Part shown: positions 8,948 through 27,924 of the stretch, in pieces
Numbering within the stretch: the first letter of the stretch is position 1
Layout: every line of letters starts with the position of its first letter
NCBI GenBank assembly: GCA_965206595.1
Contig: OZ242214.1
Coordinates: forward strand, 4,032,001-4,096,000
Direction of reading: 5' to 3'
Length of the DNA stretch: 64,000 nt
From: Candidatus Latescibacterota bacterium
Lineage (GTDB): Bacteria > Latescibacterota > UBA2968 > UBA8231
Notes under the pieces: generated by a model
The model's input: the letters and a program-made list of their open reading frames with translations, nothing else
What the model was told of the DNA's origin: nothing
The model's database searches: none
Made by a program: the position numbers and the translations under genes

Positions 8948-8952
8948 TCTGA

Positions 8953-10275: not shown

Positions 10276-10279
10276 TTCT

Positions 10280-10687
10280 TCAGTCCTCCCGGCAGGTTGC
10301 CCGCTTCTCCGCCCACTGGATTACAGCCTCGGCGATCTCTATCGCATCCCGGTACGCCTCTTCGGACACAGGCTGGTCAACGCCTGGATAGCGCGTGTCC
10401 ACGGCATAGGGGGTGAGTCCCACAGCGCGACGAATCCTGTCCGGGACATCCTCACCATTCTCTTCAAGCATCGAGAGCAGAAGGGCCAGGTTGTGCACGT
10501 AAGGGAAATCGATGTTGCGCAAGATCATCACGGCCTTGACGGCCTTCTCGGCGGCTTGCTGCGCCTGAAAGCACAGGTCCTCCAAGTAGGCACCGGGGAC
10601 GCGGTTCCCCGCCATCGCGAGATTGCTTCTGGCGCGGTTCAGCCACTCGCGAGGATCATCCGGAGGAAACCGCTCAGGTGGACTCAT
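10280..10687 (-). CDS. HEPN domain protein (MNT-HEPN toxin-antitoxin)
   Basis: WLNRARSNL, CFQAQQAAEKAVKA, HNL and RYPG motifs. Confidence 0.85.
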   Translation of the reverse strand: MSPPERFPPDDPREWLNRARSNLAMAGNRVPGAYLEDLCFQAQQAAEKAVKAVMILRNIDFPYVHNLALLLSMLEENGEDVPDRIRRAVGLTPYAVDTRYPGVDQPVSEEAYRDAIEIAEAVIQWAEKRATCRED

Positions 10688-10985
10688 AGACCACCCTTCC
10701 TTCCTGCAGCGCCGGCTTGATGACCAACGCATGGCTGTCCTTGTAGCGCTCTACGTCCGACGGCGAGACCAGGATCGCATCGACCGCGACCCGAACGCCG
10801 TACAACTTCTCGTAGATCCGGGTCCTGAGATTCGCGTCTCCTCCCTCTTTGATAATGAGAAGATCCACGTCGCTGTTCGGTGTCATGGCGCCCCGGGCAG
10901 CGGACCCGAAGAGGACGATGCGCTCCGGCTGTGCCACCTCCACGACGCGCCGGATGATGTCATCCAGGGTGTCTTGGTCAATCAC
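10674..10985 (-). CDS. Minimal nucleotidyltransferase (MNT antitoxin)
   Basis: LFGSAARG...SDVDLLII motif. Confidence 0.88.
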   Translation of the reverse strand: MIDQDTLDDIIRRVVEVAQPERIVLFGSAARGAMTPNSDVDLLIIKEGGDANLRTRIYEKLYGVRVAVDAILVSPSDVERYKDSHALVIKPALQEGRVVYEST

Positions 10986-10997
10986 TTGGTGCTCGCC

Positions 10998-11570
10998 TCA
11001 TGTGACGCCGGCAGCGGTCCCCAGACGCCCGGCAAGGGCATCGAAATCCTCGGGACACTTCTGCCGAATCGCATCGATCCGGCGCGATGCCTCTTCTCCC
11101 AGAGGCTTGCGGCCACCGCCGGGCGCGTCTGACAAGCCGCGTTCGACGACAAACCGGTCGAAGTACTCCTCCTTGACTTGGATCTCCGCGCGCACCTCCG
11201 CCCAAGTCCAATCATCCGGCAACCTCAGGCCCGCAAGGACCCAGGTCTCGATTTCCTCCCAGGCATTCTCGGCCAGGAAGGCCCGATCGCTGCCGAATTG
11301 CACCTCGAGACGGTCGAGGCTCTGGCGACGATTCGTGTCGCCGTCACGATCAATGATCAGGATGAAGATATCCGTCATTTCCCCATGCTTTCTGACCACC
11401 TCTGCCATGCGTTCCGACTTCAGCGCTTCCCGGAAGCCACCGAGTAGGGGATCACGGCAAACCTCAACCTGCACATGCCGCCTACCAATAGATCGAAAGA
11501 GCCTTGAGAAAAGAGGTTTCAGAATGTACTGATCCTTGCGGAAATCCTCGGGGATGATGAGGACGTTCAC
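10998..11570 (-). CDS. TOPRIM-like partner protein of ABC ATPase
   Basis: GTG start overlaps the ATPase stop (GTGA). LIIPED...IIDRDG...EEIETW acidic pattern. Confidence 0.65.
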   Translation of the reverse strand: MNVLIIPEDFRKDQYILKPLFSRLFRSIGRRHVQVEVCRDPLLGGFREALKSERMAEVVRKHGEMTDIFILIIDRDGDTNRRQSLDRLEVQFGSDRAFLAENAWEEIETWVLAGLRLPDDWTWAEVRAEIQVKEEYFDRFVVERGLSDAPGGGRKPLGEEASRRIDAIRQKCPEDFDALAGRLGTAAGVT

Positions 11571-12874
11571 TCGCCGTCTCCCTCCGCTTCCTCGTAGTTT
11601 TCGGTGAAGGCCAGGGCGGTCTCCATCCAGCCTTCCATAAGCAGCCCTCCCAACCCGCTCCCGGACTTCCGCAGTTGTCTTGCGTTGGGCAGTTCGGCAA
11701 CCAGGCGAATGATGGCATCGTCCGAGTCTTCCAACCGGCAAACGATGGACATGTCCTCGAAGGTGGTGTCGTTGACAAGAGTCAGCAGATCCGGCGCATG
11801 GGTGGTGGTGATCATCTGAACTCCTCCCTTTGCGGCCTGCTTTTCGATCAGTTCCAGCAAGAGCGACTGGCGCGCCGGGTGAATTCCGGTGTCGATCTCC
11901 TCGAAGAAGTACAATCCATTGGACCTCTTGCCGAGCAGCAGGGCCAGCAGGGCGAGGAACCGGAGGGTGCCGTCCGAGGCGCTATAGGCGGATACCGTTC
12001 TCTCGTTGCCCTCCAGGATTTGGAGATGGACTCGACCGCTGGGGTCATGTGGAAATCTTAGATCCCTTACATCCATGGGGGTGAGTTCTCGCAGCCACGC
12101 CGTCAGGACATCCTTACGTTCGGCATCCGAGCAGAGGGCTTTGAGCACCACGGCCAGGTTCTCGCCTGAGTCTCCCAGGACAGTGTGACCAGGAAGGGCC
12201 GGCTCCCGCATGCGCTCCGGGGACAACTCCAGAAAGCGCATGCCGGCGAAGATGGCCATCGTCTGTAGAATGTGTGGATCCAGAAACTCCTTGCTGGGCT
12301 GGGATATCGATATGGGTTCACCCATTGTCTCCACCATAGAGTCGAGTTCCTTTTGGAAGGTAGGATCTCTCTCTCTGATCGATAGGAAGATTCTGTAAAG
12401 CAGGGGATAGCCATCCGCCGGCGTTGGTACGGAAGCAGCTCGATCGGGATTGCTGTTAACGGTGAAAGACCGGTGCTCCTTCGCATATCCCGGCTTGATT
12501 CTTCCGGTAAGTTTCTCTCGTGCAATCCGGAACTCATTGTTCTCTCTTTCGTATCCAACTTCGATCAAATAGCATACGTCTGCGGCCTTCAATTGGATGC
12601 CCACCTCAATTGAGAACCCGGATTGTCCGAACCTGACAATCTCATTCGCTGCTCCCCGGATCGGCTCCCACGCCCGCTGACCGCCGGGGCCGTACTTGCC
12701 GCCGATGATCTCCGCCAGCGTATAGCCCCGGCCGATGCCGTGCAGGAAGCGGAAAGCATCGCGGATATTGCTTTTGCCGCTGGCATTCGCGCCGACGATT
12801 ACGGTGAACGGGCCGACGCGCAGGGTCTCGTCGGCGAAGTTCTTGAAATTCACGAAGCGAATGGATGTAATCAT
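11567..12874 (-). CDS. ABC-type AAA ATPase (AAA_21-like)
   Basis: GANASGKSN, ASDGTLR, FFEEIDTGIHP and ITTTHAP. ATGA overlap with the methyltransferase stop. Confidence 0.9.
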   Translation of the reverse strand: MITSIRFVNFKNFADETLRVGPFTVIVGANASGKSNIRDAFRFLHGIGRGYTLAEIIGGKYGPGGQRAWEPIRGAANEIVRFGQSGFSIEVGIQLKAADVCYLIEVGYERENNEFRIAREKLTGRIKPGYAKEHRSFTVNSNPDRAASVPTPADGYPLLYRIFLSIRERDPTFQKELDSMVETMGEPISISQPSKEFLDPHILQTMAIFAGMRFLELSPERMREPALPGHTVLGDSGENLAVVLKALCSDAERKDVLTAWLRELTPMDVRDLRFPHDPSGRVHLQILEGNERTVSAYSASDGTLRFLALLALLLGKRSNGLYFFEEIDTGIHPARQSLLLELIEKQAAKGGVQMITTTHAPDLLTLVNDTTFEDMSIVCRLEDSDDAIIRLVAELPNARQLRKSGSGLGGLLMEGWMETALAFTENYEEAEGDGE

Positions 12875-15800
12875 CGAACTTCCTCCGGTCTGTGCTCGGC
12901 TCCTCCGAACTGAAGCTGCCTCTGCCGCGGCGCCTGGACGCCGCCGCGGCCGGCCGCGTGGTTGCTCACCGACTCCAGAAGTGAGCGCTCCTCCGAGCCT
13001 TCGTCGGCCAACTCGATCAGGGCCTGGAGGATCTGGTTGAACAAGCGATTACGGGGCAGGCCGCGGGTATCGAGGTAGTCATTCACCTTGACCTGGTCCC
13101 CGGCGCGCCAGAGGTGCATGAGCTTGTGCACCTGGTCGATGAGGGGGGCCGGCCGTCCCCCTTGGCCCTCCAGGCCGAGGTTGCGGCCCTTTCTCCGCTG
13201 CCAGGGCTTCAGCTTCACCTTGGCGCCGCCGCCCGTCTCCTCTGCCTCTTCGGGCGCGTCCTCCTCCTCCTCGACTTCGTCCACGGCTCCCCTCCTGCCC
13301 GGCTGGGTCAGAAGGTCGTGCTGGTTGACCAGGGCGGAGTCGGAGAGGTTGCAGGACAGAGCGTAGAGGATGCAGCCTCCCACGGGAGCTTCCCCCAGAC
13401 CGAAGTCATTTCGGTGGAGCAGGTAGTAGGTGGTGACGTCGTCAAGGCCGGTCTCGGACTCCTGCCCATCTGCCTGCGGTGCCGCGTCATCCTGGATGAG
13501 CACGCGACCGACCACGAAATCGACAACCATGCGCCGCACTTGGCGCAGGAATTCCGACACGGACATCTGCTGGCCCGGGGCGTTCGCCTTCTTGACCACG
13601 GGATACTTGCTGAAGGCTTCGAGGGCCGGGCCGGTGGCGGCCCACACGAAGTCGGGGCCGCGGATGCCGGCGTCCCAGAAATCTCGCAGTTGTTGGGTGA
13701 TGTTCTCGCGCATTTCGTCGAGGACTTTGTTGTCCCAGCCGGGGCGCGTGGCGGACCGCTTCTTGCAGACGATCCATATAGACGACGCCAATGAAGCGCG
13801 GCCATAGTTTCGAACTCCACCTCGCATTTCCGTAGCAATGGGCCAACTTCCGTCTACGACAAATCCTGCTCGAATAATGGCTGAGACTAATGTTTCCCAA
13901 GCATCAGGCTGTTTATTCGCAAAGACGACGATGAGTCGCCCACTGGGCTGTAACGCCTTATGACAGGCTTGGAACGCACGGGCCATGCCGTCTTCGTAGT
14001 TCTGTTTGGACAGCTCTTTGTTGCCACCAAATCTGCTGGCATCGTCAATCAATTCGCCGTCGTGATCGTCTGTGCTCCACTTCGGCCCTAGAGATTTCCG
14101 AAATAATCTGTCGAACTCATCCGAAATACCGAATAATGTCCGTCGCAACCAAATGTAGAAAAAGTCCATTAAATCAGAGTAAGGAATTGCGTCATAGTAT
14201 GGAGGATCGGTGACAACTACATCGTGCTGCTCAGCGGGTATCATCGCACTTTGGCACAGTACCGTTGGCGAAGGGTTGTTTTGGATGGTAGCAGATCCCA
14301 TGGAGTCCAGAACCCTCACAACACTTGAAATCCCGCCAGCGAATAGTCGATCTACAGGGGCAAGGGGATTTCCCTCCGCGAAATCCCAAGTGATTGGCAG
14401 CGCAAACCTCAAGAAGGTTTGTTTGACCTCGGATGCAACAGGCTCCCATATGCAAAGAGAACTCATATAGTTAATCGCACGATCTAATGATGCGGCAAGC
14501 ATTACTACGGCTACTGCAAAAAAATTATCTCCAACTCCATCATCTTGGAGGGATTCGCTTGTCCAAATTTCCCTTGTCGATTTGATGAGGGTACCAATCG
14601 CGAATAGCTGCCGATTCGTGAACAGCTTCCGCCAAGTGTCGAACCCATACAAGGGAACACGAAACCCCAGAGCTTCTTTGCTTGGCAGGGGCTCCTCCGG
14701 CAACCCGAACGGAATATCCTGATAGAGCTTTTGAAGCCGGTCCTCGGTCACCTCCGCCGAGGCCCGCTCGTGGTCCGTGGGCAGGCGGTACTCCTTCCCC
14801 TTCAGCCCATCCACCACCACGGCCGTCATCACCGCATCCAACCGTCCGGCGCGACCTTCCAGACGGATGTCCTCCATGGTCGCGATGGCGCCGCAGCAGG
14901 GGCAGGCAGCGCCGGTGCGCGACATGGTGCCCGCGCCGAGACGCCGGTCGTGTTCGCGCCGCTGGGCCCCGTTGCCGCCGTTCTGCGGCACCTCGCTCTG
15001 CACACCGAAGACGACGCCGGATTGGTCGGCCTTGGGCTCCATGGTCAACAGCACTCGCTTCCGGTCCTTCCTGCACAGCCAGCGGGTCTTCAGCAGGGGC
15101 AGCTCGGCCCGGCACTGCTTGCAGGCCACGGTGCGCGCCCAGAGATAAGCCACCGCCGACTTGGCGACCCAGCGCGGGTTGTGCTGGTTCTTCAGATAGT
15201 CCTCGTCGAATTCGGCGTTGAGGGGATCGACCTGGGGCGCGCCCGCGTCGTCGACCTCCAGCAGCCGCATGCGCCGGGGCTCGAAGTCCCCGCCCGGCTT
15301 CAGCGCCTCGAACTCGGCATAGGTCGGGTAGCAGGAGGCCAGCTCCTTGCGCGCCCTCGCTAGCACCCACCGGCCCCAGGCGCGCACATGCCAGGCGAGG
15401 TCCGCACTGTCAATCCGGTCACCACCGGGAAGAGCGTCGAGCTGAACGCCGCTGCCGTCGCCGTGTCCCAGGCGGTCAAGAAAACTCCGCAGCCGGGCGC
15501 CCTTGAAACCCTTGGCCTTCAGGAAGGCCTCCATGAACTCCCGGTCCTCCAACGCGAACCCGGGCAGCGGCCGGGTCTGGCCGGCGAGCTTCTGCGGGTA
15601 CTCGAGGGTGCACTTGAGGATGAACCAGGCCACCGGGTTGATGTCCATGGCCGTCACCTCGCACCCGAGACGCATGGCTTCGAGCGGAATCGCGCCGCCG
15701 CCCGCGAAGGGGTCGAGGACCTTTGGCGCCCTGCCGCCGTAGGCCTTGCGGATCTCAGCGCGGAACCACTCCAGGTCCGGGCCTTTCTCCCGGCCCCAGT

Positions 15801-16116
15801 GGAGGATGCCGCCGTCTGTCTCCTCCCTCACACGCTCGACCACGCGGCCGTTCACGCGCTTGCGCTCGGTCCTCTCGATGACCCGCCCTGCCATCCGTTC
15901 AAGGACCGCCTTGCGCTCCTCGGGATTGCCCGGGTCGGGCAGAAGGGTCGCGATCAGGGCCGCCCGGCAGGCGGCCAGCGGCCTGCGCGCGGGCCAGATG
16001 TGGAGGGTGGAGATGTGGCCGTGACGCACGTTCTTCTCGTGCACGGAGTCGAGAGAGACCTGCTTCAGCGGGAAGGCGACTTCGATGAGGCGTTTATCAA
16101 CCACTTGTTCACTCAT
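12871..16116 (-). CDS. DUF1156 adenine DNA methyltransferase (Zn-ribbon containing)
   Basis: KRLIEVAFP, LHIWPARRPL, LDPFAGGGAIPLEA (SAM binding), CKQC/CPCC and TDPPYYD catalytic motif. Confidence 0.92.
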   Translation of the reverse strand: MSEQVVDKRLIEVAFPLKQVSLDSVHEKNVRHGHISTLHIWPARRPLAACRAALIATLLPDPGNPEERKAVLERMAGRVIERTERKRVNGRVVERVREETDGGILHWGREKGPDLEWFRAEIRKAYGGRAPKVLDPFAGGGAIPLEAMRLGCEVTAMDINPVAWFILKCTLEYPQKLAGQTRPLPGFALEDREFMEAFLKAKGFKGARLRSFLDRLGHGDGSGVQLDALPGGDRIDSADLAWHVRAWGRWVLARARKELASCYPTYAEFEALKPGGDFEPRRMRLLEVDDAGAPQVDPLNAEFDEDYLKNQHNPRWVAKSAVAYLWARTVACKQCRAELPLLKTRWLCRKDRKRVLLTMEPKADQSGVVFGVQSEVPQNGGNGAQRREHDRRLGAGTMSRTGAACPCCGAIATMEDIRLEGRAGRLDAVMTAVVVDGLKGKEYRLPTDHERASAEVTEDRLQKLYQDIPFGLPEEPLPSKEALGFRVPLYGFDTWRKLFTNRQLFAIGTLIKSTREIWTSESLQDDGVGDNFFAVAVVMLAASLDRAINYMSSLCIWEPVASEVKQTFLRFALPITWDFAEGNPLAPVDRLFAGGISSVVRVLDSMGSATIQNNPSPTVLCQSAMIPAEQHDVVVTDPPYYDAIPYSDLMDFFYIWLRRTLFGISDEFDRLFRKSLGPKWSTDDHDGELIDDASRFGGNKELSKQNYEDGMARAFQACHKALQPSGRLIVVFANKQPDAWETLVSAIIRAGFVVDGSWPIATEMRGGVRNYGRASLASSIWIVCKKRSATRPGWDNKVLDEMRENITQQLRDFWDAGIRGPDFVWAATGPALEAFSKYPVVKKANAPGQQMSVSEFLRQVRRMVVDFVVGRVLIQDDAAPQADGQESETGLDDVTTYYLLHRNDFGLGEAPVGGCILYALSCNLSDSALVNQHDLLTQPGRRGAVDEVEEEEDAPEEAEETGGGAKVKLKPWQRRKGRNLGLEGQGGRPAPLIDQVHKLMHLWRAGDQVKVNDYLDTRGLPRNRLFNQILQALIELADEGSEERSLLESVSNHAAGRGGVQAPRQRQLQFGGAEHRPEEVR

Positions 16117-16135
16117 GCAGCTGCTCGTCGCCCGT

Positions 16136-17641
16136 TCAGATGTAGAATCGAAAGGTGGGTTGCCGGTTAGTAACGGTCGGATTGCTCACAAGTATCTCTC
16201 CCACTGCATCAGAGAACTTCACAGTAACCGGCTGGGTGTCGCCAGCATTACAGGCGTTGTAATTGAGCTTCGTCAGACCGAGAATATCCCGAGCCACATC
16301 AACAATATCCGCCTCTCCATGCTGAATATCGATCTGGAGAGGCACCGGCGTTTCCCATCCATCGTAGGTTCCGAGACGCGGTTTGAACCCGGACCCGAAC
16401 AAATATCCCCGAGTTCCTGAATGCCTCCACAAGGTGCCGCGAAGCACCGGCCACGGTCTGTCCGGCCGGTACAGTCGCGGACCATCGTGCCAAGGACGCA
16501 CGCGAATGCCGACGACCTTCAGTCCCTTCGGGGCAGCAGACCTGTATCCTTTGAATTCCTCCGCACTGATGTCAGATCTCGAGTGGAGAAAGACTTCGGT
16601 CAAGCTCTTCCCATGTAGCTGAGTATATGTATCAAGTGCGCCCTTCAGTAGATCGTGTGCCGCTTTGGCTGTAAGACGAAACTGCTTCTCTATTGGAGAA
16701 TACCAGGGTCCATAGTTCCCCAAGAATACCACCCCATCCCCATCGTCAAGGAACATTTGGGCGGCACACGCGGCACTCTTCGGCCCGTCCCTGGCATCGG
16801 TCCTACGGAACGCAAGCCCGACATAGCACACGCCTTCTCTGGCAGTAGCCAGCTTCCATGGCTTCCCACCTCCCTTGTAGTACATCGTGGTCGACAAATT
16901 CCACATGCGATCTGACAACGGAGTCAGCTGCCGTGCCCCAAAAGGATTCTCGTCGTTGAGTCTCAAAGCCGATTCACGCACGATTTGAATCGGAACCCCA
17001 TAAACCATCGTCCGTGCTTTGATCTGCCTCCGGAAATCCAGCGACAGTTCGTACTGCTCTGGCGGGAACCTCGAAAAAGCATCGAGCTGACCCCTCCTAC
17101 GCGACTCTCGTCTCCTCTTGGAAATGACCTCCCCGGTCGGCTGTAGCACACGAGACATCGTCCGGCAAGTTTGATGTATTTCGTCAGGCACCACGCAGAC
17201 CATGAGGCTTACATGCTCCTCAATCTTCTGCAAATGCTCAAACGTCGAGAGGTACTGGTTCACGGCGGCAAAAACCCGCTCGTGGGGATCATGGCGATTA
17301 GCCACATCACTCAGTTTGTGGCTATCGAGTGCCTGTTGCCAAACAGGTTCGGTTCGCCAATCACACGAGAAGGCTGCCTCAAAGCCCGGGTACGGTGGCC
17401 ACAAGCGATGGCGGTCATCCGGGGCATCTGTCCATGGGCGGTGCATCGCACTCGACCACGCGGAAAACAGCTCCATACCTGCATGTGTGCCAACCACACC
17501 GTAGGATAGAGCTGCTGGATGACCGGGAGCGTCCGCGTCGTACGGGCCGAACAGAGACAGCCCATCACGCGGATGGGCGACCGCTTGACCGTACCGGAAT
17601 TCCAGTGCTGGCTCGTCCAGAATCACTATCTCCCTCAACAT
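16136..17641 (-). CDS. ago: Short prokaryotic Argonaute (MID-PIWI)
   Basis: 501 aa from ATG 17641: EPALEF...PRDGLSLFGP, YYKGGGKPWKL, CYVGLAF, FLHSRS, LGLTKLNYNAC...PVTVKFSDAVGEIL...FRFYI. No PAZ domain. Confidence 0.92.
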   Translation of the reverse strand: MLREIVILDEPALEFRYGQAVAHPRDGLSLFGPYDADAPGHPAALSYGVVGTHAGMELFSAWSSAMHRPWTDAPDDRHRLWPPYPGFEAAFSCDWRTEPVWQQALDSHKLSDVANRHDPHERVFAAVNQYLSTFEHLQKIEEHVSLMVCVVPDEIHQTCRTMSRVLQPTGEVISKRRRESRRRGQLDAFSRFPPEQYELSLDFRRQIKARTMVYGVPIQIVRESALRLNDENPFGARQLTPLSDRMWNLSTTMYYKGGGKPWKLATAREGVCYVGLAFRRTDARDGPKSAACAAQMFLDDGDGVVFLGNYGPWYSPIEKQFRLTAKAAHDLLKGALDTYTQLHGKSLTEVFLHSRSDISAEEFKGYRSAAPKGLKVVGIRVRPWHDGPRLYRPDRPWPVLRGTLWRHSGTRGYLFGSGFKPRLGTYDGWETPVPLQIDIQHGEADIVDVARDILGLTKLNYNACNAGDTQPVTVKFSDAVGEILVSNPTVTNRQPTFRFYI

Positions 17642-17651
17642 CGGCACCCTA

Positions 17652-19052
17652 CTAATCTGCCTTGGCATCCTCGACCTCCGCGTCGTCCTCCCAATACCAC
17701 GCGGTGTACGCCTCATCGGGCTCGTCCACCAAATCGTCGTGGATACGAAGGGGAGCTTTCGAAACAATCGGCATGGCGCTGATGACGAGTTGCTGCTCTC
17801 CCTCCGGCCCGAAGCGGATATACAAATCCTCATCCGCCAGTAGCTGCGCTATACCGAGGGTTCTTGCGGCCCACTCTCTGTTGAACCATGTCTTGCATAG
17901 ATGTTTGCGGCGAGAGAGGATTCTCTGCTTCGTGAGCAGTGTGCCACTCGCATCTGTAAGGTAGACGCGATTCCTGAGCAACAGGACGAATGGGTCGATT
18001 GTGTCCGTCAGTACCGAAAACGATGGACTCAAGTGGTATCGGTATACCTCTCCCCCATCCCTGGTAGGATAGGTACGCTCCCCGACTCCGCTGAACCAGC
18101 TCCTCTTTCCATCGGGGAAGGTGAATGACACGCGGTCGTTACCTAAGAATCCCCGTGGGAGATACCACTGGCCCGTTTTCCTCGTGTTCCTCCTGTTCCT
18201 CCTCCCTCCCTCACGTCCGGGCTCCGCGGTGACGGAGTATTCCATTCCCGCATCCCTCAGAAGGGAGTCCAGACATCTATGAATCAGGCTAACCACCAGG
18301 TCACGCGTGTCAATTCCATCCACCTCCGCTGTGTCCTGCCAGGGAACTCTTCCCACACACTGAAATCGAGTACGTGCGCTCACGGCAGAAGGTGGGTCCT
18401 CAAACGCGAGTACACGGCGGCCGAACACATCCCGACAGGCCCACTCTCTCCGCAATGCGCGACGCTCGCCCCTGGAGAGATTGCTCTCAGCCTCGTACTT
18501 GTGAATGTATCGCGGCGTTTGCACAACCTCGAAGCAGTTGCTAATCAACTCCTCGGGTTCCTCGTCGACGGCGCTCGTTCCAACGATTGAGGCTATAGCA
18601 ACGCGGCGGCCGTTATCCAACACTCGTGGCGCACCGACTGACTGGAGTTTCTTGAGCAGGGCAGTGAGCCCCTCAGCCCAACTGGGGCAGAAGGGGATAT
18701 AGTTGATGGGTTGAAGATTCCAAGTGATTTGGTCCGGGCGGAGTCCTTCGGTATTCAGCGGGATTACAAAGTCCTCAATGCCCAACTGGCTTCCAATCGC
18801 GGTGCCCTTCAGCCACTCTCCCTGCGGATTCGGCTTTTTCATCGATGCCTGCGATAGAAGTGCAAGCATACGGAAAGTGCGTTGATTGATCGCTTCATCG
18901 ATGTCCGAAGGCCAGTTCTCCCCACCAAGTAGCTTCAGGCGATCGTACCATACAGCGTACCCTTCGGCGGCAAGTCGTCGGGCAAGCCAGTCGCACAGTG
19001 CCGACTGCTCGGTCGCGTAACTGATGAAGATGTGATCGCGTTCTTGTTTCAT
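17652..19052 (-). CDS. TIR-APAZ protein (SPARTA effector, putative NADase)
   Basis: N-terminal TIR (IFISYA...LAAEGYAVWYD...GGE.W...GEW), a C-terminal APAZ-like region (SRRKHLCKTWFNREW), and position directly upstream of the short pAgo. Confidence 0.88.
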   Translation of the reverse strand: MKQERDHIFISYATEQSALCDWLARRLAAEGYAVWYDRLKLLGGENWPSDIDEAINQRTFRMLALLSQASMKKPNPQGEWLKGTAIGSQLGIEDFVIPLNTEGLRPDQITWNLQPINYIPFCPSWAEGLTALLKKLQSVGAPRVLDNGRRVAIASIVGTSAVDEEPEELISNCFEVVQTPRYIHKYEAESNLSRGERRALRREWACRDVFGRRVLAFEDPPSAVSARTRFQCVGRVPWQDTAEVDGIDTRDLVVSLIHRCLDSLLRDAGMEYSVTAEPGREGGRRNRRNTRKTGQWYLPRGFLGNDRVSFTFPDGKRSWFSGVGERTYPTRDGGEVYRYHLSPSFSVLTDTIDPFVLLLRNRVYLTDASGTLLTKQRILSRRKHLCKTWFNREWAARTLGIAQLLADEDLYIRFGPEGEQQLVISAMPIVSKAPLRIHDDLVDEPDEAYTAWYWEDDAEVEDAKAD

Positions 19053-19077: not shown

Positions 19078-19449
19078 TCAAGCCAAGGCCTCAATCCTCA
19101 CCTCGCCACGCGCCACCACTTCCACTCTCAGGCTGTGCCTCTTGAGCAATCCCATTCCTACGAGGGGAGTAGTATCGGCCGCAGCCACTTCCACCGGCCG
19201 GTCCTGCCCGTTCCACAACACTGTCCCAATGTACTCGTCGAATACATGTAGACTGCCGTCGGCGATTAGTGCCTGACCACGACCTTTCCAGGACAGATCC
19301 AGCCTGCGGATCAAGGCTGTTGGAAGGGTGAGATAGCCAGTGAAGCCGGTATCGATGATGGCCTCGACTTCCCGTCCCTCCCTGTCAACGCCGAGAAGGG
19401 TAAGGCGGATGGTTGCCTCCAGATTCTCGTTTACTGCACCCTCAATCAT
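19078..19449 (-). CDS. Clan AA (retropepsin-like) aspartic protease
   Basis: AIIDTGFTG catalytic motif and LVGM.LL C-terminal motif. Confidence 0.85.
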   Translation of the reverse strand: MIEGAVNENLEATIRLTLLGVDREGREVEAIIDTGFTGYLTLPTALIRRLDLSWKGRGQALIADGSLHVFDEYIGTVLWNGQDRPVEVAAADTTPLVGMGLLKRHSLRVEVVARGEVRIEALA

Positions 19450-19718
19450 GTCAGGCCACTGGCATGTGATGCGCCGAGCCGGTGTAGCGCACGGTGGCCG
19501 ATGCGGATCAACCAGGGCTGTGCATCGGGACAACGCGCAAACAGTTGGTCGGAGGCGGCAAGGGGATCGTCCCCCACCTCGAACTCGCCGGTCTCAATGT
19601 CAATCGCCACGATCCGTCCGCTGTTGCCCTCTTCCACCTGCGGCCTCACTCGTTGCTCGTAGATCTCCTGACCAAGCCGGGCGAACTCCTCTTTGCTATG
19701 GCGCGGCTGTCGTTCCAT
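19446..19718 (-). CDS. Small hypothetical protein (DUF5678-like) coupled to the aspartic protease
   Basis: GQEIYEQRVRP...GRIVAIDIETGEFEV; AAGGAG RBS; ATGA overlap with the protease gene. Confidence 0.7.
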   Translation of the reverse strand: MERQPRHSKEEFARLGQEIYEQRVRPQVEEGNSGRIVAIDIETGEFEVGDDPLAASDQLFARCPDAQPWLIRIGHRALHRLGASHASGLT

Positions 19719-19732
19719 GCTGTTCTCCTTTC

Positions 19733-20373
19733 TCAGATCTCGATCTCCGCCGCAGACTCTTGAGCCGAGCGGCCGGCGACGGATGCGTGCAGACACTGGA
19801 AGTCAGTCTCGTTCCTTCCCCGAGGGCCTGACCCCAAGGAAGCCGGATCGATGCGAGTCTGGCCGTTCAGCCGGCGAACCGCGAACAGCGACTCGTCCTC
19901 CAGCGGATCAGGCAGGATCGGGGAGTGCGTGGTGATGATATGCTGGATCTGGTTCAGGCTCTCTTGGGTCCTCAATAACTCCGCGATCAACTCGATCCGC
20001 CGCGGGTGGACTTCATCCTCCGGTTCCTCGATCCCTACCAGGGCCGGACCCTGGTCCACTCCTGACAGCGCCAGGAGACCAAGCATCCTGAGAGAGCCCT
20101 CCGACAGGACGCGGGCCGGAATGGCTATATCGCCTTCCTTGAGGCGGAGCTCGACCTCGCCGACATCGCTGACCTCCACCTCGATTCCATCGATGTTGGG
20201 CATCAGCGCTCCTTCAACGTGCGGCTCGTCCCCAGCTTGGAGAGCAGTTGCAGGGCATCCAGCAGATTGCTCTTGCCTGCGGCGTTCGGCCCGACGAGGA
20301 CGACGAGGGGGGAGAGGGTTACTTCGACGTCCTTCAGAGACTTGAATCCCCGGATATGGATTCGTCTCAGCAT
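19733..20373 (-). pseudogene. Internally deleted ABC/AAA_21 ATPase
   Basis: N-terminus (GFKSL, GPNAAGKSN) joined out of frame near 20210 to the C-terminal half (LSEGSLR, IEEPE..HP, ITTHSP). Confidence 0.8.
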
Positions 20374-20454
20374 GGTGGGCTCTCCAGCGCCTTCCACGCC
20401 GGCTTCCGGCCTTCATCATGGCACGGCCTCATCAATCGACAACGCAACAGAGGT

Positions 20455-20955
20455 TCATCCCAGGAAGGCATCGGGTTCCTGGTCAGGTTCTCTGGCCTTC
20501 AGTTTCCTGTCCTTGGTCCAGATGTGCACTCGCCCCCCTGCCCCCCGGTACCTTGTCTGCTTGAGCCTCCGGGCTTCGTCGATCAGTGTACCATCGCTCA
20601 AGTCAATGCCTTCGAGGACGTGAGTGTCGACAAAGCGTGCTACTGCCTCCCTGAGCCAGCGAGCCTCCCGCGAAAGCAAGACGGTCCATGGCATGCCTTC
20701 GTCGAGACTGGACAGGACGCTATCTCGCATCTTCCCGGCCAAAGACACCCGCTGATTGCCGTCCGCCACATCGGCGATATGGCTGGCCAACTCGTAGACG
20801 CAAGGCGCAGTGACGTACAGCCGCGCTCCGCTCCTAGCAGCATCGGAGACGCGCGTCTTTACTTCCTCAACTGCTTTCTCCGTCGAACACCCAGGAACGG
20901 CGAACAGCTCCAGCAGGTAGCTGGTATCGATCAGGTAGACCGACAGCGGGTTCAC
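20455..20955 (-). CDS. PIN-domain-like protein downstream of ABC ATPase
   Basis: YLIDTSYLLEL...E...DLSDGTLI...IWTKDRKL fits the PIN acidic pattern; TAGTG overlap with the ATPase stop. Confidence 0.7.
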   Translation of the reverse strand: MNPLSVYLIDTSYLLELFAVPGCSTEKAVEEVKTRVSDAARSGARLYVTAPCVYELASHIADVADGNQRVSLAGKMRDSVLSSLDEGMPWTVLLSREARWLREAVARFVDTHVLEGIDLSDGTLIDEARRLKQTRYRGAGGRVHIWTKDRKLKAREPDQEPDAFLG

Positions 20956-22241
20956 TACAGAGCCTCGACCCACTTCAGTACCTTGTCGCGTTGGCGTTCC
21001 TCGAACTCCGGTGCCAGGTACTGCTCGACGACACGACGCGAGACGAGATCCCCCAGCTGTCCGCGCTCAAGGAACTCATCGAACCTCGGAAGGTCGGTCA
21101 GCTCGATGAGATCCGCGGCTTCCCTGGTCTGGCTCCAAGTGCAGAGAACCACTCCCTTCATCTGCTCGTCCGTCAGGCTGTTCATGGTGGCGGGGTTGTG
21201 CGTGGTAACCAGTACCTTCAGCTTGCGTCGCTGAGTGGCATCGGCTATCGCGGCGGTCAATACCTCTACTCGACTCGGGTGGAGCCCGTTGTCGAACTCC
21301 TCCACGATGACGCGCGAGCCCTCCTGGACGGTATCCAGGGCCGTCAGGATGGCCAGGGTTCTCAGTGTTCCATCGGACAAGGCCCGGGCGTCCACGGTGA
21401 AACCTGTCCTCTCCTGAAGTCCGAAGATCACGTCCCCGAGATCGGTCGTGGTGAAGCTGAATTCTTCGTACGGCTCGTCGGGAAGCTGGCGTATTCGAGA
21501 CAGCAGCCCAGCCAGCGATGCCTGCTGTGCTTCGTCTCCTACGCTAAGGGCGTAGAGAACCGCCGACAGGTTGGCGCCATCCCGGGAGAGAACACTGTTA
21601 CCGATCCGCTCGTAACCATGCATCAATTTGGGATTCGGGTCGAAGACGAAGGAGGCCTGCAAGTGACGTATGACGATCCCCACCAGTCGATTGCAGTGCT
21701 TGAGATTGCGGTTCTTCTGTGCGATCTCCTGATACTGATATAGAACGGACCGTTCTGATGAGGCGGCGGTCTGGGGTTTCCTGCCACCGCGGGCGAAGTT
21801 GTCGTATCTCACCGTTAGATCTAGTGATGCTGATCCAGGATTCCTTGGAAGCGTTTCATAGATCACACGGTCGGCAAAGGTCAGTTCTTCAGCGGCAATC
21901 TGGGGATGCGGTTTCGTAAAGAGGCTCAGGATGTAGCAAAGCCTCTTTGGCTCTTCCTCCAGCTTCAAGCTAGCAGTGAATCCCAAAGTGAATCTATCTC
22001 CACCAGCTCGACCGCAAGCCTGAAGACCTCCCCGGATCTGAAGGCCGACGGACGGACGACCAACGTCCGCGATCTCATGGAGGGGTTGACCCCGGGCAAC
22101 GAAGGAAAGCAGCTCGATGGCCTCGATGACATTGCTCTTGCCCGAGCCGTTCGGTCCGATCAGAAGCGTGAACGGCCGGAGCAAGTCGATTTGGGTGTCC
22201 TCGAAGCCCTTGAAATCAGTAAGGTGATGCATTCTGGCCAC
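20955..22241 (-). CDS. ABC-type AAA ATPase (AAA_21-like), start uncertain
   Basis: GPNGSGKSN, LSDGTLR, VEEFDNGLHP and VTTHNP. Confidence 0.88.
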   Translation of the reverse strand: MARMHHLTDFKGFEDTQIDLLRPFTLLIGPNGSGKSNVIEAIELLSFVARGQPLHEIADVGRPSVGLQIRGGLQACGRAGGDRFTLGFTASLKLEEEPKRLCYILSLFTKPHPQIAAEELTFADRVIYETLPRNPGSASLDLTVRYDNFARGGRKPQTAASSERSVLYQYQEIAQKNRNLKHCNRLVGIVIRHLQASFVFDPNPKLMHGYERIGNSVLSRDGANLSAVLYALSVGDEAQQASLAGLLSRIRQLPDEPYEEFSFTTTDLGDVIFGLQERTGFTVDARALSDGTLRTLAILTALDTVQEGSRVIVEEFDNGLHPSRVEVLTAAIADATQRRKLKVLVTTHNPATMNSLTDEQMKGVVLCTWSQTREAADLIELTDLPRFDEFLERGQLGDLVSRRVVEQYLAPEFEERQRDKVLKWVEAL

Positions 22242-22309
22242 CTTGGAATGACTGGGTTTGTTTTCGGCTTGGCATCTTCCTTCCTACCGCCTCCATTCCC
22301 GCATCTTCT

Positions 22310-22581
22310 CCCTCTCCCGGACGAATCTCGCTTCTTCTGGCAACAGCTCGATGGCCCGGGGCCAGGCTTCCTCCACCGCCGGTGGGCTTCACGGGCCAGC
22401 AGGATCTTGCTCTGGGCAAACTCCAGAAGCGCCCGAGGATCCGGCGTACACCGAGTCCCCCGCCCGCTCGAAGTAGCTGAGCGGCGGGCTCGCGGAAGGC
22501 CGCCTGACCGGGCACCCGTTCCGACTCCACGCCGCGGCAATGGAGCAGATCGTCGAGGTTGATGGGGAGAATGGCGCTCAT
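22310..22581 (-). pseudogene. Fragment of an AlbA/Schlafen-type ATP-binding regulator gene
   Basis: MSAILPINLDDLLHCRGVESERV N-terminus, then abrupt loss of frame. Confidence 0.45.
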
Positions 22582-22598
22582 GGAGATGGATTCTCTTC

Positions 22599-24209
22599 TC
22601 ACATCCCCCACACCGTGACCGGGGCCCCGCCTTCGGTCTCGTCGCGGCGGTAGACCTTCTCTTCCCAGGACTTGCCCTCGGTGCGGTCGAAGATCACCAG
22701 GTGCCCTTCGGCCGACGCGCAGCGCTCCATGTAGCCCCGCGTCTGCTCCAGCCCTTCGCCAAGGGTCCGCTCCAGGCCCCGGTGCAGCACCTTGCACTCG
22801 ATGACCACCTTCTGCACCCCGCCCGCATCACCCGGCAGCGGCCACACCAGCAGCAGATCCGTGCGCAGGCGCCCGAGGCCGTACTCCCGCTCGATTCGCC
22901 CCCCGCTGTTGAGGATGCGCTGCAGAAACGCCTGCAGCAGCAACTGCGGCCCGGCCTCCTTGTACTGGAAACGCTCCACCCAGTGCTCGGAGTGCTCGCG
23001 GAAAAAACCCTGGAAGGCGGCCAGCAGCTTGCCCACATCCAGGGCTCCGCCCTCTCCGACGTACCAGGCCGGGTCGTGGGGGATCGACATCTCCTGGGTG
23101 GTCCAGGTCAGGTCGCGCGGGATCACCTCGCGGTAGATCGGGTTGGCGATGCGGACCGGGCTGTCCCGGGCCACCAAGCCGAGGTCGCGGACGTACTGCA
23201 GGTCGTCGGCGGCGATGGGCCCGGCGTCATCGGCGCCTCTCAGCAGCGGCTCGATCACCCTGCGCACCCGCTCCTCCTGGAGCTTGTCGGTGAGCTGGTC
23301 CAGATGCGTCTCCCGGAGCAGGATCAGTTGCTCGCGCGCATCCTGGATGGCCTCGGCGGTCACCTCCCGGCTTCGGTCGCGGCCAGCCTTGTTCCTGAAG
23401 CAGACTTCGTAGGCCAGGGCGTTGACCAGCCACGGCTGCCCTTGGGTCAGCTCCCAGATCGTGGCCCGCGCCTCCTCGCTGAAGGCCTGGCCGGTCTCCT
23501 CTGTGTGCTGCGCAAGCAGGGACTCAACCTCGTCGCGCGAGAAATCCTCGAGCCGCAAGGACTCGGCGATGATGTTGAAGGGGCTGCCGCCGGCGATGAT
23601 GGCGCCCTCGGACGACGAGCGGATGCGGTAGTCGCGCACCTCGCGCACCCCGCACAGGATGACGCTCTGGGGAAAACTCCGAGGGCGCTCCGGGTAGCCG
23701 GCTCGCAACTGCCGCAGCACCGCCAGCAGGCTGTCCCCGATCAGCGCGTCGATCTCGTCGAGCAGCAGCACCAGCGGCCGGGGGTCCGACTCGGCCCAGC
23801 GGGACAGGATCCCGTGTAGAGCAGCGGACGGGCCGGAGCCCTCGAAGATGCCTAGCCAGGCGTCAGCGACAAAAAGGTCGTCGAGGGTCTGGCGCGCCGC
23901 GCGGGCGAGGGCACTGAGGATCGCCCGCATCGCCGCTTCCAAGTCTTCCCGCGCCGCCTGGCCCGCCTCGACGTTCACGTAGACGCAGCGGTACTCCCCC
24001 GCGGCGCCGCTGTTGAGCAGATCTCTCAGAGCCAGCAGGGCCGAGGTCTTGCCGGTCTGCCGGGGCGCGTGCACCACGAAGTACTTCTGCTGCCGGATCA
24101 GCATCAGCACCTCGTCGCGGTCCAGCCGCTCCAACGGCGGCACGTGATAGTGATCCGCCGCCACGATCGGGCCCGCCGTGTTGAAGAACCGCCTGGCTGT
24201 CGTCGTCAC
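22599..24209 (-). CDS. P-loop ATPase with C-terminal PD-(D/E)XK-like region
   Basis: FFNTAGP, HAPRQTGKTS and LLLDEID; C-terminal REY.LGR.RTDL...VIECK...Q...Y. Confidence 0.8.
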   Translation of the reverse strand: MTTTARRFFNTAGPIVAADHYHVPPLERLDRDEVLMLIRQQKYFVVHAPRQTGKTSALLALRDLLNSGAAGEYRCVYVNVEAGQAAREDLEAAMRAILSALARAARQTLDDLFVADAWLGIFEGSGPSAALHGILSRWAESDPRPLVLLLDEIDALIGDSLLAVLRQLRAGYPERPRSFPQSVILCGVREVRDYRIRSSSEGAIIAGGSPFNIIAESLRLEDFSRDEVESLLAQHTEETGQAFSEEARATIWELTQGQPWLVNALAYEVCFRNKAGRDRSREVTAEAIQDAREQLILLRETHLDQLTDKLQEERVRRVIEPLLRGADDAGPIAADDLQYVRDLGLVARDSPVRIANPIYREVIPRDLTWTTQEMSIPHDPAWYVGEGGALDVGKLLAAFQGFFREHSEHWVERFQYKEAGPQLLLQAFLQRILNSGGRIEREYGLGRLRTDLLLVWPLPGDAGGVQKVVIECKVLHRGLERTLGEGLEQTRGYMERCASAEGHLVIFDRTEGKSWEEKVYRRDETEGGAPVTVWGM

Positions 24210-24299
24210 TGGTCCCGCTCCCTCGCTGGGCGCCTTGCCTCTCGACATGCGGATGAATAATCGCCCATGTCCCCGGGCTTTCCCAATTCGCGGCCGGCC

Positions 24300-27200
24300 C
24301 TACTCCGACGCCTCCATCACCGACCCCGCCGCGATGGTGAAGGTGCGCGACTCCCGGTCCCCCACCACCAGCTTGGCGAAAGGGTTCTGCACCCGCATTA
24401 GACACGGACGGGGCGTGGCGCAGTCGAAGACGACGTAGAGCCAGTACCGTTCTCCAAGGTTGCAAGCCTTGATCCATTCGTTCTCGCTCATCTCCACGCC
24501 TTCGGTGCCAGCCCTTCCCTTGACTTCTATGGCTCGCGGTTCCATTCCCTCTCGGCGGGACAGGAGGTCGAAGCCCGGCCAGTCAGGCAGTCCGGCCCTC
24601 CTCGCCATCGCCGGCTTGCAGACATCCTGCACCTGGGCGCCCCGTTCCTCCTCGTAGGCGGTGGCTACCTCCATGGCGATGGCCTCGACATCGGCGTCGT
24701 AGCGCTCCGCCTCCCCGGCGTCCTGGGCCGGCACCACCAGGGCATGCACCAGGAATTCGGCTTCCCCCGCCCGGATGAGGTCCGGCTCCGACCGCATCTC
24801 GGCGAGCCGGTGGGCACGCACGGCGTTCAGGCTCCGCTGCCGTTCCCTGACCTTGGCCAACTCCTCGGCCGCCTGGCGGTCCCCGGCCCCCGCCTTCTCT
24901 CTGAGGCTGGACCGGGCGGCGGCCAGCTCGGCGGCCTGGTAGTCGAAGCCGCGGTTGACGAACTCCAGGCGCCTGGGCAGATCGTCCAGGCGGCGTTGGC
25001 GGTTCGCCTGCACGATCTGCTCGCTCACTTCCTCGTCAAGGAAATCTGCGGTCTCTCCGGCCATGCCGCGCGCCAGGGTGGCCAGGGGTACCCCGCCCGG
25101 GGCGATGCCGCCGGCTCCGCGCAGCAGAAGCAGGTGTTCGACGGGGCACTCCTTCACTGCGCCATCACTGGTCTGGCGCAGCCCGACGAGGCGCGACTCG
25201 ACCAATTGGGGTTCCCCTTCAGCCTGGCCGCGGGCGTCCAAGGGAGGTTGCTGCTGGACACTGACCCGCGCGATGTGAAACAGGTAAGCCTCAGTCGCAT
25301 AGGGGTCGCTGAACAATGCTCCACGCAGCCCTTCGGCTCCGAGACGCTCCCGCACCGCGGCCGAGAGGGTGTCGAAGACCGGCTCGCCGGGGTGCAGCCA
25401 GATCGCCTCTTCGCGGCTCTCGGGTTTGTACACGGTCAGCCGCTCCCTCGCCTCCTCCGGATAGGCTTCGAGGGCGGGCAACAGAGGGTCGGCCGCGCGG
25501 GGCCGGTCCGGCATCAGGCCGAAAGCGCCGCCCGGATCCCCTTCGAGGCGCAGGTCGAGGAGCGGCGCCGATCTCTCGACAAAACGGCGCACGTACCCGG
25601 GCAGCAGCCGGCGGTAGTTCTCCTGTTCCATCTCCTCGTTGAGATCGTCCAGCCGGCCGCGCACCTCGCCGCCGTCCCCGTAGAGGGAGCGCTCTCTTGC
25701 CGCAAGGGCCCGGACCTGCTCTTCCGTGAGGTGGCCTTCCATCTGACTGGCTGCGGCCTCGCCGCCGTCCTCACCGGTCACCGCTTGCTCCAGGTACGCC
25801 CGGACGGACAGCCCCTCGAAGAGACGGCCCACCACGTCGAAGACCTTGTCCGAGCTGAGCTGTTGGCGGATCGCTTCCAGCTTGTCGAGCAGCGTCTTGA
25901 GCACCCTACCCTCGCGCGTGCCGGCGGAGACGAGGTTGACGATGACTACCGGATCGTGCTTCTGGCCGTAGCGGTGGATGCGCCCCATCCGCTGCTCGAG
26001 GCGGGCCGGGTTCCAGGGGATGTCGTAGTTCACCATGAGCCAGCAGAACTGCAGGTTGATCCCCTCGCCGGCGGCGTCGGTGGCCACCAGGTAGGTGGCC
26101 CCGCCCTGGTCGGCCGGCCGGCGGAACAACTCGACCTGGCGTTCCCGCTCCGGGTAGGCCAGGCCGCCGTGGATCAGGGCGACGCGGCCGGTGTAGCCGA
26201 GGCCTTCGAGGCGGCGCACCAGGAATGCCGCCGTGTCCCGGTGCTCGGTGAAAATGATGAGCTTCTCGTCGCGGTAGTGCGGCGCCCCAAGCACCTCCCG
26301 CAGCTTCTCGAACTTGGACTCCTCGCCGGCGTCAAAGAGCTTCTGGGCCTTGTCGAGCAACCCGGCGACCTTGACACGCTCCGCCTCCAGCTCCGCGAGG
26401 GTGACCGCCACCGTGCCCTCGAGGGCCTGGCTCTCGAACTCCTCGTGCTGCTCCCCTTCGTCGCTGGCCGCCTCCTCGTCAGCGGTGCTCGTTTCGAAGA
26501 GGTCGTCGAGCCGGCCGAGGCGTTGCTGCCGCCTCGCGAGCTGCTCCTCGGTGAGGCGGCCGCTGCGGATGTCGTCGATCAGACCCTCCAGCTTCTCGAG
26601 GCGGCGCTCGAAGGAGCGCAGAAGGGCATAGGTGGAGCTGGCCAGGCGGCGCTGAAAGACGCTCATGGCCAGCCGGGCGGCGGAACGGTTCAGCGCCTTT
26701 GCCCAGTTGTAGTGATAGCGCATGTACTCGGTGGTCTCGTCGTACAGCTCCTGCTCACCGTCCGGTCCCTGGGACAGCTCGTAGCTGAGGGTGTCGCAGT
26801 TGCGCTGCGGGTAGAGCGGCCGATGGTCGAAGTGGACCATCTCCTCCTTGGTGCGGCGGATGAAGTGCCGCTGCCGGGAGTCGGGCGGGAACTCCTCGAA
26901 GGCGTCGAAGGTGGAAAGGGCATCCGGCAGCAGCAGGCGCCACAGGTAGTAGTAGGGGTGGTCCTTGCCCATGTGCGGGGTGGCCGTCAGCAGCAGCAGG
27001 TGCTGCGCGGACCAAGGGAGCTCCCACCGATCCTTGTCGTCGGACTCGGCGCCGGCCAGGGCCTCGGCCAGCCTGTAGCGGCCCGTCTTGCGCACCCGGA
27101 AGTCCGGCTGACGGTCCGCTGACAGCTTGTGAGCCTCGTCGAAGACCACGAGGTCGTAGGGGTCGGTCTGCGGGTCCTTGAGGTGGCCGAACATGCGCTC

Positions 27201-27884: not shown

Positions 27885-27924
27885 TCTGCCTTCTATCCTT
27901 CTGCGGTAGATTCGGTTACGCCAG

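What the first reader, a model, noticed from the sequence alone, without database searches (positions are those of the whole stretch)
16136..19052. Complete SPARTA (TIR-APAZ + short Argonaute) embedded 19 nt upstream of the DUF1156 methyltransferase
Seen: intact TIR-APAZ and short pAgo genes, less GC-rich than the flanks, end just before the methyltransferase ATG (16116). Known: SPARTA depletes NAD(P)+ after guide RNA-directed recognition of invading DNA. Inference: a pAgo nested inside a BREX-related operon suggests either an insertion hotspot or functional coupling, for example the helicase/nuclease generating ssDNA targets. I do not know of this pairing being characterised.
Basis: partly seen in the sequence, partly recalled or inferred. 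Interest (0 to 1): 0.75.

Follow-up and report, generated by a model that had tools for sequence, protein, structure and literature searches.

The report
SPARTA resident inside Hma defence operons
A known suicide-type bacterial immune system (SPARTA) sits inside a known DNA-methylation defence operon (Hma), and its close relatives in several phyla occupy the same slot, most likely as a long-term passenger that adds a backup layer of defence rather than as a working part of the operon.

Summary
An intact TIR-APAZ (19052-17652) and short pAgo (17641-16136) end 19 nt before the DUF1156 methyltransferase of an Hma (type-1 BREX-related) operon, hmaA-hmaB-hmaC. Both systems are known, and Hma is a published insertion hotspot.

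The placement is not a one-off. The window pAgo and 14 of 80 GTDB loci form one clade across four phyla; 13 of the 14 lie after hmaA and 12 before hmaB, while other cargo turns over. Both genes are under purifying selection and keep the catalytic Glu.

The link is one-sided:
- Most Hma of this lineage appear to lack SPARTA (rough proxy, about a quarter or fewer carry it).
- SPARTA is broken in 3 of 14 loci with the core open.
- A close relative stands alone.
- No Hma-specific adaptation is seen in the pAgo.
- Other SPARTA-family clades sit next to type I RM, BREX, DISARM or other Hma subtypes.

Best reading: an autonomous SPARTA that is a long-term, probably co-transcribed passenger and second-line defence. 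Supply of ssDNA targets by the HmaA helicase-nickase is plausible but untested (about 0.2). I did not find the pairing in the texts searched; key figures and supplements were not visible.

The parts
17652..19052 (-). TIR-APAZ (466 aa): TIR NADase with E79 (equivalent to MapSPARTA E77), APAZ region, acidic C-terminal tail; no Mrr domain
   Evidence: Pfam TIR_2 and PADLOC Aga_TIR-PNTD; profile of its family hits SPARTA TIR-APAZ chains nearly full length, E 4e-52; AlphaFold model pLDDT 88, best Foldseek hit 8i88_C E 3e-27; E79 in 13 of 13 clade rows
16136..17641 (-). short pAgo (501 aa)
   Evidence: PADLOC pAgo_I E 9e-167; full-length match to CrtSPARTA/MapSPARTA/BabSPARTA pAgo chains, E 2e-97 to 1e-93
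16117..16135 (-). 19-nt spacer between the pAgo stop and the hmaB start; no terminator-like site here
   Evidence: sequence; promoter/terminator scan; gap of 73 nt or less in 10 of 12 clade loci that reach hmaB
12871..16116 (-). hmaB, DUF1156 N6-adenine methyltransferase (1081 aa), with a low-GC variable segment at about 14063-14600 (likely the target-recognition domain; inference)
   Evidence: Pfam DUF1156 and PADLOC HmaB E 1e-118; DPFAGGG and DPPY motifs; segment unalignable to all close relatives, GC 0.47
24300..27935 (-). hmaA, SNF2 helicase with N-terminal HTH_3 and C-terminal NOV_C nuclease
   Evidence: Pfam and PADLOC HmaA E 6e-161; GFD...EVK motif in 13 of 14 aligned rows including the window, GFD...DVK-type variant not seen, L010 reads DIEVK
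4387..7704 (-). hmaC, DUF499 ATPase (1105 aa)
   Evidence: Pfam DUF499, PADLOC HmaC E 4e-74
19078..24248 (-). variable cargo between hmaA and SPARTA: AAA_35 ATPase (22599-24248), PDC-M07A/B pair (20455-22241), internally deleted AAA_21 gene (about 19733-20400), two small ORFs (19446-19718, 19078-19449; the second has an aspartyl-protease-like DTG motif, label recalled, no Pfam hit)
7701..12874 (-). variable cargo between hmaB and hmaC: AAA_21 ATPase plus partner, HEPN, HEC-01A plus DUF4276, DUF433/DUF5615
2714..4465 (-). 81-nt duplication of the hmaC 3' end (2714-2794 and 4385-4465, 91% identical) bracketing a low-GC PDC-S31/DUF2971 cargo gene (3151-4257)

Best explanation
This is an autonomous SPARTA that has lived for a long time as a passenger in the hmaA-hmaB slot of one Hma lineage. 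How it works, from characterised SPARTAs: TIR-APAZ and pAgo form an auto-inhibited heterodimer, load 5'-phosphorylated RNA guides, bind complementary ssDNA of a transcribed multicopy invader, tetramerise, and the TIR domains destroy NAD(P)+, removing the infected cell (inferred by homology, not shown for this protein). How it relates to Hma: it has no promoter-like site of its own and abuts hmaB, so it is probably transcribed with the operon. It is inherited and transferred with the operon, and is lost or exchanged between Hma alleles by recombination in the conserved flanking core genes (inferred from mosaic divergence and duplicated core-gene ends). It acts as a methylation-independent second line behind the Hma barrier, without needing Hma proteins. 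Shown: gene content, residence of the clade in the slot, purifying selection, decay with an open core. Inferred: NADase activity, co-transcription, recombinational exchange, backup role.
For: Clade of the window plus 14 loci, SH-aLRT 96 (quick tree). 13 of 14 have hmaA upstream and 12 of 14 hmaB downstream; the others are short contigs, and L004 keeps an hmaB 5' remnant. Cargo between hmaA and TIR varies from 34 nt to 5.2 kb. dN/dS is 0.08-0.11 for pAgo (6 pairs) and 0.18-0.24 for TIR-APAZ (5 pairs). Independence of the core from SPARTA: L018/L020 have most of TIR-APAZ and the first 205 pAgo residues missing, and L005 has an in-frame stop in TIR-APAZ; hmaA and hmaB are open in all three, hmaC in L018/L020. 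Independence of SPARTA from Hma: L012 (73% identical) has no hma gene within 10 kb. Only 3 of 120 nearest HmaA and 3 of 120 nearest HmaB clusters share a contig length with a clade pAgo cluster; member counts are 807 HmaA (list truncated) against 228 pAgo, and 52 against 10 in the closest shell. SPARTA-linked HmaBs are scattered among 117 others (11 changes for 13 rows). Only 11 clade-typical pAgo substitutions, 9 shared with solo L012. dS between window and L010 ranges from 0.11 (hmaC) to 0.53 (hmaB). Duplicated core-gene ends bracket cargo in the window, L003 and L013. SPARTA works alone in E. coli (PMC9097488).
Against: Confinement of a clade to one slot across four phyla, with pAgo and TIR-APAZ distances tracking HmaA (Mantel r 0.74 and 0.82, p 0.0005), is also what coupling would give. 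22 of the 66 other loci lie next to some methylation-based core, which could reflect a general functional preference (no genomic background computed). The contig-length proxy is insensitive: HmaA and HmaB lists themselves share only 9 of 120. The TIR tetramer-interface residues R54 and R114 of MapSPARTA are not conserved (N56, P115), so activation may differ from the model systems.
Confidence: 0.68

Rival explanations
1. Facultative functional coupling. HmaA nicks and unwinds unmethylated invader DNA, producing ssDNA or short fragments that guide-loaded SPARTA binds, so Hma restriction feeds and licenses abortive NAD+ depletion. SPARTA-family systems gather next to RM-like cores for this reason.
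For: SPARTA is activated by ssDNA and by short (60 bp or less) but not long dsDNA (PMC9097488 passage). The HmaA NOV_C domain is a nickase needed for defence (PMC11232893 passages) and its motif is kept across the clade. Distances track HmaA better than the adjacent HmaB (r 0.74 against 0.39). Independent Hma neighbours in 6 of 66 other loci and other RM-like neighbours in 16 more, including a Poribacteria clade beside type I hsdM/hsdS. A pAgo working with a helicase-nuclease has a precedent in DdmDE (search listing).
Against: No added domain or Hma-specific surface in pAgo. Most of the Hma lineage appears to lack SPARTA. L012 stands alone, and 44 of 66 other loci showed no such neighbour in the genes tested. 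HmaB's weaker correlation is explained by its own mosaic history (r 0.22 with HmaA). Defence-gene clustering predicts the same neighbourhoods.
Confidence: 0.2
2. Guard model. SPARTA is held inactive, or its expression is controlled, by Hma (as PrrC is by EcoprrI) and fires when a phage inhibits Hma.
For: Tight operon position in 10 of 12 loci. HmaA carries an HTH_3 domain that could autoregulate the operon. The PrrC precedent is discussed by Payne et al..
Against: SPARTA keeps its own acidic C-terminal tail in the clade, the auto-inhibitory element of model SPARTAs. Solo relatives exist. Nothing points to a contact with Hma proteins.
Confidence: 0.07
3. A recent one-off insertion into a hotspot, with no history in this position.
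For: Lower GC than the core genes; Hma is a hotspot.
Against: The same slot is used by homologues down to 72% identity in four phyla, and DNA similarity runs continuously from pAgo into hmaB in 9 of 13 loci compared.
Confidence: 0.03

Closest known systems
SPARTA (short pAgo clade S2A; MapSPARTA, CrtSPARTA, BabSPARTA; PMC9097488, 10.1101/2023.09.23.559129)
   Same: TIR-APAZ then short pAgo in one operon; full-length sequence and fold match; E77, N174, K395 and Y262 equivalents and an acidic tail are kept.
   Different: TIR-APAZ is about 20% identical in structural alignments; R54, R114 and W46 equivalents differ; the clade resides in Hma, whereas PMC9097488 says the APAZ protein is the only specific partner of short pAgos.
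Hma / type-1 DUF499 BREX-related system with embedded cargo (10.1101/2024.01.29.577857; PMC11232893; PMC12839542)
   Same: hmaA-hmaB-hmaC order, same-strand embedded cargo including HEC-01 and PDC-M07-like ATPase pairs.
   Different: The embedded systems named in the texts are Septu, PARIS, Ppl, BrxU/GmrSD, HECs and nucleases; pAgo or SPARTA is not named. This operon carries more than three genes per interval, the limit used in the Payne survey.
DdmDE (pAgo DdmE with helicase-nuclease DdmD)
   Same: A pAgo encoded with a helicase-nuclease (search listing and abstract starts).
   Different: DdmE is DNA-guided and hands targets to DdmD, its dedicated partner. Here the pAgo has its own TIR effector and the link to the helicase is facultative.
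PrrC in EcoprrI and BrxU in BREX (embedded backup systems)
   Same: An effector nested in a methylation-based system (Payne discussion).
   Different: PrrC is held inactive by the RM system and is almost always embedded; SPARTA as a family is mostly not embedded.

Membership tests
SPARTA | Short pAgo, full-length homologous to SPARTA pAgos | tested here: met
   501 aa, residues 2-501 align to 8j8h_A/8ifk_B, E 2e-97; PADLOC pAgo_I
SPARTA | No DEDX nuclease tetrad | tested here: inconclusive
   By motif reading, GLA (275-277) and SRS (354-356) stand where active pAgos have acidic motifs, and D478 remains. The position mapping is recalled; no long pAgo was aligned.
SPARTA | TIR-APAZ gene directly upstream in the same operon | tested here: met
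   10-nt gap; profile E 4e-52 and Foldseek E 3e-27 to SPARTA TIR-APAZ
SPARTA | Catalytic TIR glutamate (E77) | tested here: met
   E79 aligns to E77; present in 13 of 13 clade rows
SPARTA | Residues shown to be needed for activation in MapSPARTA | tested here: inconclusive
   N174 (N172), K395 (R389), Y262 and the acidic D133 region are kept; R54 (N56), R114 (P115) and W46 (P48) are not
SPARTA | RNA-guided ssDNA binding, tetramerisation and NAD(P)+ hydrolysis | not testable with these tools
   needs biochemistry
Mrr-TIR-APAZ subclade | N-terminal Mrr nuclease domain | tested here: not met
   TIR begins at residue 8; no extension in 12 of 12 scored clade loci
Hma / type-1 BREX-related | SNF2 helicase with C-terminal nuclease, DUF1156 MTase and DUF499 ATPase in one operon | tested here: met
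   definition from PMC12839542 section 29
Hma / type-1 BREX-related | Anti-phage activity and DNA methylation | not testable with these tools
   needs experiments
DdmDE-like coupled pAgo-helicase | Obligate co-occurrence and physical handover between pAgo and helicase-nuclease | tested here: not met
   Co-occurrence is one-sided, with decayed and solo copies; physical contact was not tested

The most novel reading that the evidence does not exclude
This SPARTA clade is a two-tier device with Hma: the HmaA helicase-nickase turns unmethylated invader DNA into ssDNA or short fragments that activate SPARTA. More generally, SPARTA-family systems may settle beside RM-like cores (Hma, type I RM, BREX, DISARM) because these supply their targets. 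That would address how short pAgos reach ssDNA targets in vivo and how they avoid self.
Probability: 0.2. Interest if true: 0.78.

Novelty: new variant of a known kind. Interest (0 to 1): 0.45.

Why it matters
Short pAgo systems are described as stand-alone (PMC9097488), and Hma cargo is described as diverse. A SPARTA clade that has stayed in one Hma slot across four phyla, while neighbouring cargo turns over, is a natural test case for whether embedding is only hitchhiking and co-regulation or also mechanistic cooperation. If coupling is real, it names a source of ssDNA targets and a methylation-based self/non-self filter for SPARTA. If not, it is a clean example of long-term residence in a defence hotspot.

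Tried and rejected
- Pfam does not detect the pAgo; PADLOC and PDB sequences do.
- The promoter scan of 15800-20600 found 0 sites against 1.4 expected, so it is weak evidence either way.
- The repeat search of 2500-30000 showed no direct or inverted repeats bounding SPARTA among the families listed (20 of 23 direct, 18 inverted), so a transposon-like insertion was rejected.
- Plasmids: 50 records match the pAgo (best 40%) and 76 match HmaB (best about 31-33%). None of the 40 and 60 accessions listed is shared. The one region opened (H1) has SPARTA beside conjugation genes without Hma.
- The HmaB tree is poorly resolved and does not track HmaA, HmaC or pAgo.
- The careful pAgo tree did not finish; the quick tree with SH-aLRT support is reported.
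- Cluster membership look-up could not be made, so organisms and contexts of the unnamed protein hits are unknown.
Contig-length matching is only a proxy. Metagenome and viral contigs stayed unchecked.
- No complex prediction was run.
Full report
Observation. The minus strand carries an open 466-aa ORF (19052-17652), a 10-nt gap, an open 501-aa ORF (17641-16136), and 19 nt later the ATG of a 1081-aa ORF at 16116. The first is TIR-APAZ (Pfam TIR_2; PADLOC Aga_TIR-PNTD E 3e-65), the second a short pAgo (PADLOC pAgo_I E 9e-167), the third a DUF1156 methyltransferase. The pAgo aligns over its whole length to solved SPARTA pAgos (E 2e-97). A profile of 69 TIR-APAZ relatives matches SPARTA TIR-APAZ chains nearly end to end (E 4e-52), and the AlphaFold model (pLDDT 88) has SPARTA chains as all top Foldseek hits. 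GC is 0.56-0.57 against 0.62-0.68 for the core genes, similar to most other cargo.

The surrounding operon. The core is hmaA (27935-24300; SNF2 helicase, N-terminal HTH_3, C-terminal NOV_C), hmaB (16116-12871) and hmaC (7704-4387; DUF499). This is the Hma system, renamed type-1 BREX-related in PMC12839542 (passages and section 29 read). SPARTA is one of many same-strand cargo modules, alongside PDC-M07, HEC-01, HEPN, DUF433/DUF5615 and AAA ATPases. Embedding in Hma is published: 931 of 1,485 systems (Payne et al., first part of text, passages and Discussion read) and about 66.5% (Liu et al., abstract, section 18 and passages read).

Is the placement a one-off? No. The window pAgo and 14 of these loci form one clade (SH-aLRT 96, quick tree of 81 rows), from Latescibacterota, Gemmatimonadetes, Chloroflexota and Poribacteria by record title. 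These lineages are known from sponge microbiomes (recalled). Thirteen of the 14 have a close hmaA (63-92%) upstream and 12 have hmaB downstream. L008 ends 1.8 kb after pAgo, and L004 is a 6-kb contig with a roughly 100-bp hmaB 5' remnant after pAgo. In 10 of the 12, pAgo ends within 73 nt of hmaB, while the hmaA-to-TIR interval ranges from 34 nt (L011) to 5.2 kb (window) with different cargo. Across 8-12 taxa, pAgo and TIR-APAZ distances track HmaA (Mantel r 0.74 and 0.82) and pAgo tracks HmaC (0.65), but neither tracks HmaB significantly (0.39, 0.23). The well-supported shared splits also follow host groups, so shared host ancestry contributes. Both genes are under purifying selection (dN/dS about 0.1 and 0.2), and E79, the equivalent of catalytic E77, is present in 13 of 13 scored rows.

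Is it coupled? The evidence says the link is one-sided. (1) L018 and L020 (near-identical, probably one event) lack most of TIR-APAZ and the first 205 pAgo residues, and L005 has an in-frame stop in TIR-APAZ, with the core genes that are in view open. (2) L012 (73%), just outside the clade, has no hma gene in 10 kb on either side, and L014 (68%) follows a different, reverse-order hmaC-hmaB only 27% identical to the window's. (3) The 120 nearest HmaB clusters reach only 72% identity and the 120 nearest HmaA 69%, whereas the whole pAgo group above 63% is 62 clusters. Member counts are 807 HmaA against 228 pAgo, and 52 against 10 in the closest shell. Only 3 of 120 in each list share a contig length with a pAgo cluster. 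This proxy is weak, since HmaA and HmaB lists share only 9 of 120, but it points to a minority, about a quarter or fewer. (4) The 13 SPARTA-linked HmaBs are scattered among 117 of unknown status (11 changes; 26 of 500 shuffles as low). (5) The clade pAgo has no extra domain and 11 typical substitutions, 9 shared with solo L012.

How the cassette moves. Window and L010 differ gene by gene (dS hmaC 0.11, hmaA 0.20, TIR 0.21, pAgo 0.47, hmaB 0.53), and the central part of hmaB is swapped. Duplicated core-gene ends bracket cargo: the hmaC 3' end in the window (81 nt, 91%), the hmaB 5' end in L003, and the hmaB and hmaA 3' ends in L013. No terminal repeats were seen around SPARTA. I infer gain, loss and exchange of cargo by recombination between Hma alleles, which would confine a resident SPARTA to its slot without any biochemical tie. 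One ancestral insertion with many losses and repeated re-acquisition cannot be told apart here.

Wider pattern. Of the 66 loci outside the clade, 6 have an Hma core gene nearby (L014, L026, L030, L032, L043, L049; L026/L030 between hmaC and hmaB). In 56 of the others I scanned the nearest large gene on each side (94 proteins): 14 loci had a type I, IIG or III RM, BREX or DISARM gene, 7 of them one Poribacteria-rich clade beside type I hsdM/hsdS. L038 and L071 add two more, giving 22 of 66. No background rate was computed, and related loci are not independent. In Liu's Table S7, Sphingosinicella ginsenosidimutans BS-11 has a 459-aa TIR_2 gene and a 518-aa hypothetical gene directly beside hmaC, sizes that fit an unrecognised SPARTA (sequence not checked). 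This pattern fits generic parking at methylation-based defence loci, and does not exclude a generic benefit from them.

Mechanism. Most likely (0.68) the system works as characterised SPARTAs do: RNA-guided ssDNA recognition, tetramerisation, NAD(P)+ depletion (PMC9097488 passages). It would be expressed with the Hma operon and act as a methylation-independent second line. One caveat is that R54, R114 and W46 of MapSPARTA, needed for full activation there (passages), are N56, P115 and P48 here, and solo relatives mostly differ at these sites as well. Coupling (0.2) stays open because SPARTA responds to ssDNA and short dsDNA only, HmaA is a nickase-helicase with its motif kept, and DdmDE is a precedent (listing only).

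Novelty. Five paper searches gave no listed paper on SPARTA in Hma. The Payne text has no hit for pAgo or SPARTA, the BREX paper none for Argonaute, pAgo, PIWI, SPARTA, TIR or APAZ, and all 20 'piwi' hits in Liu's supplement are pPIWI_RE. Payne's figures and supplements and the BREX supplement could not be seen and may list pAgo among embedded systems. Most subscription journals are outside the library.

Verdict. The feature is real, both components are known and the hotspot is known. The new element is clade-wide, cross-phylum residence of a SPARTA in one Hma slot. New variant of a known kind, interest 0.45.

Noticed in passing
L016-L080, TIR-APAZ genes (e.g. L017:8170-9993, L026:8012-9997): Effector swap: 34 of 34 TIR-APAZ with an N-terminal extension of about 160 aa (Mrr_cat in the two tested) lack the catalytic Glu, while 37 of 37 without it keep Glu. 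Mrr-TIR-APAZ is a named subclade (PMC9097488); loss of the Glu is not stated in the passages I read. It suggests a nuclease effector on a dead TIR scaffold.
   Followed up: partly
L017, L024, L028, L031, L039, L041 (about 5000-11500); L023:11595-14801: A Poribacteria-rich Mrr-TIR-APAZ/pAgo clade sits directly after a type I RM specificity gene (HsdM-like hit upstream in five of the six), or before hsdM in L023: a second resident clade beside a methylation system.
   Followed up: partly
window 2714-2794 and 4385-4465; L003:11546-11624; L013:15934-16279 and 8073-8228: Duplicated ends of hma core genes bracket cargo genes, a possible footprint of how the hotspot gains cargo.
   Followed up: partly
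window 14063-14600: Low-GC (0.47) segment of hmaB that does not align to any close relative, consistent with swapped target-recognition domains.
   Followed up: partly
window 19733-20400: AAA_21 ATPase fragment that is an internally deleted copy of the intact gene at L010:6551-7897.
   Followed up: yes
window 27725-27835 (hmaA residues 34-70): HmaA of this lineage carries an N-terminal HTH_3 domain (also in most hits), a possible operon autoregulator.
   Followed up: no
window 37888-43598: A second defence cluster: AbiEii in two overlapping ORFs (possibly frameshifted), GmrSD-DUF5655 (40318-42423) and an HsdM-like gene (42420-43598) that looks short; transposase genes at 34955-35907, 50043-52293 and 60333-61808.
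   Followed up: no
L032:39-10345: hmaC directly followed by Mrr-TIR-APAZ, pAgo and a Qat system on one strand.
   Followed up: no
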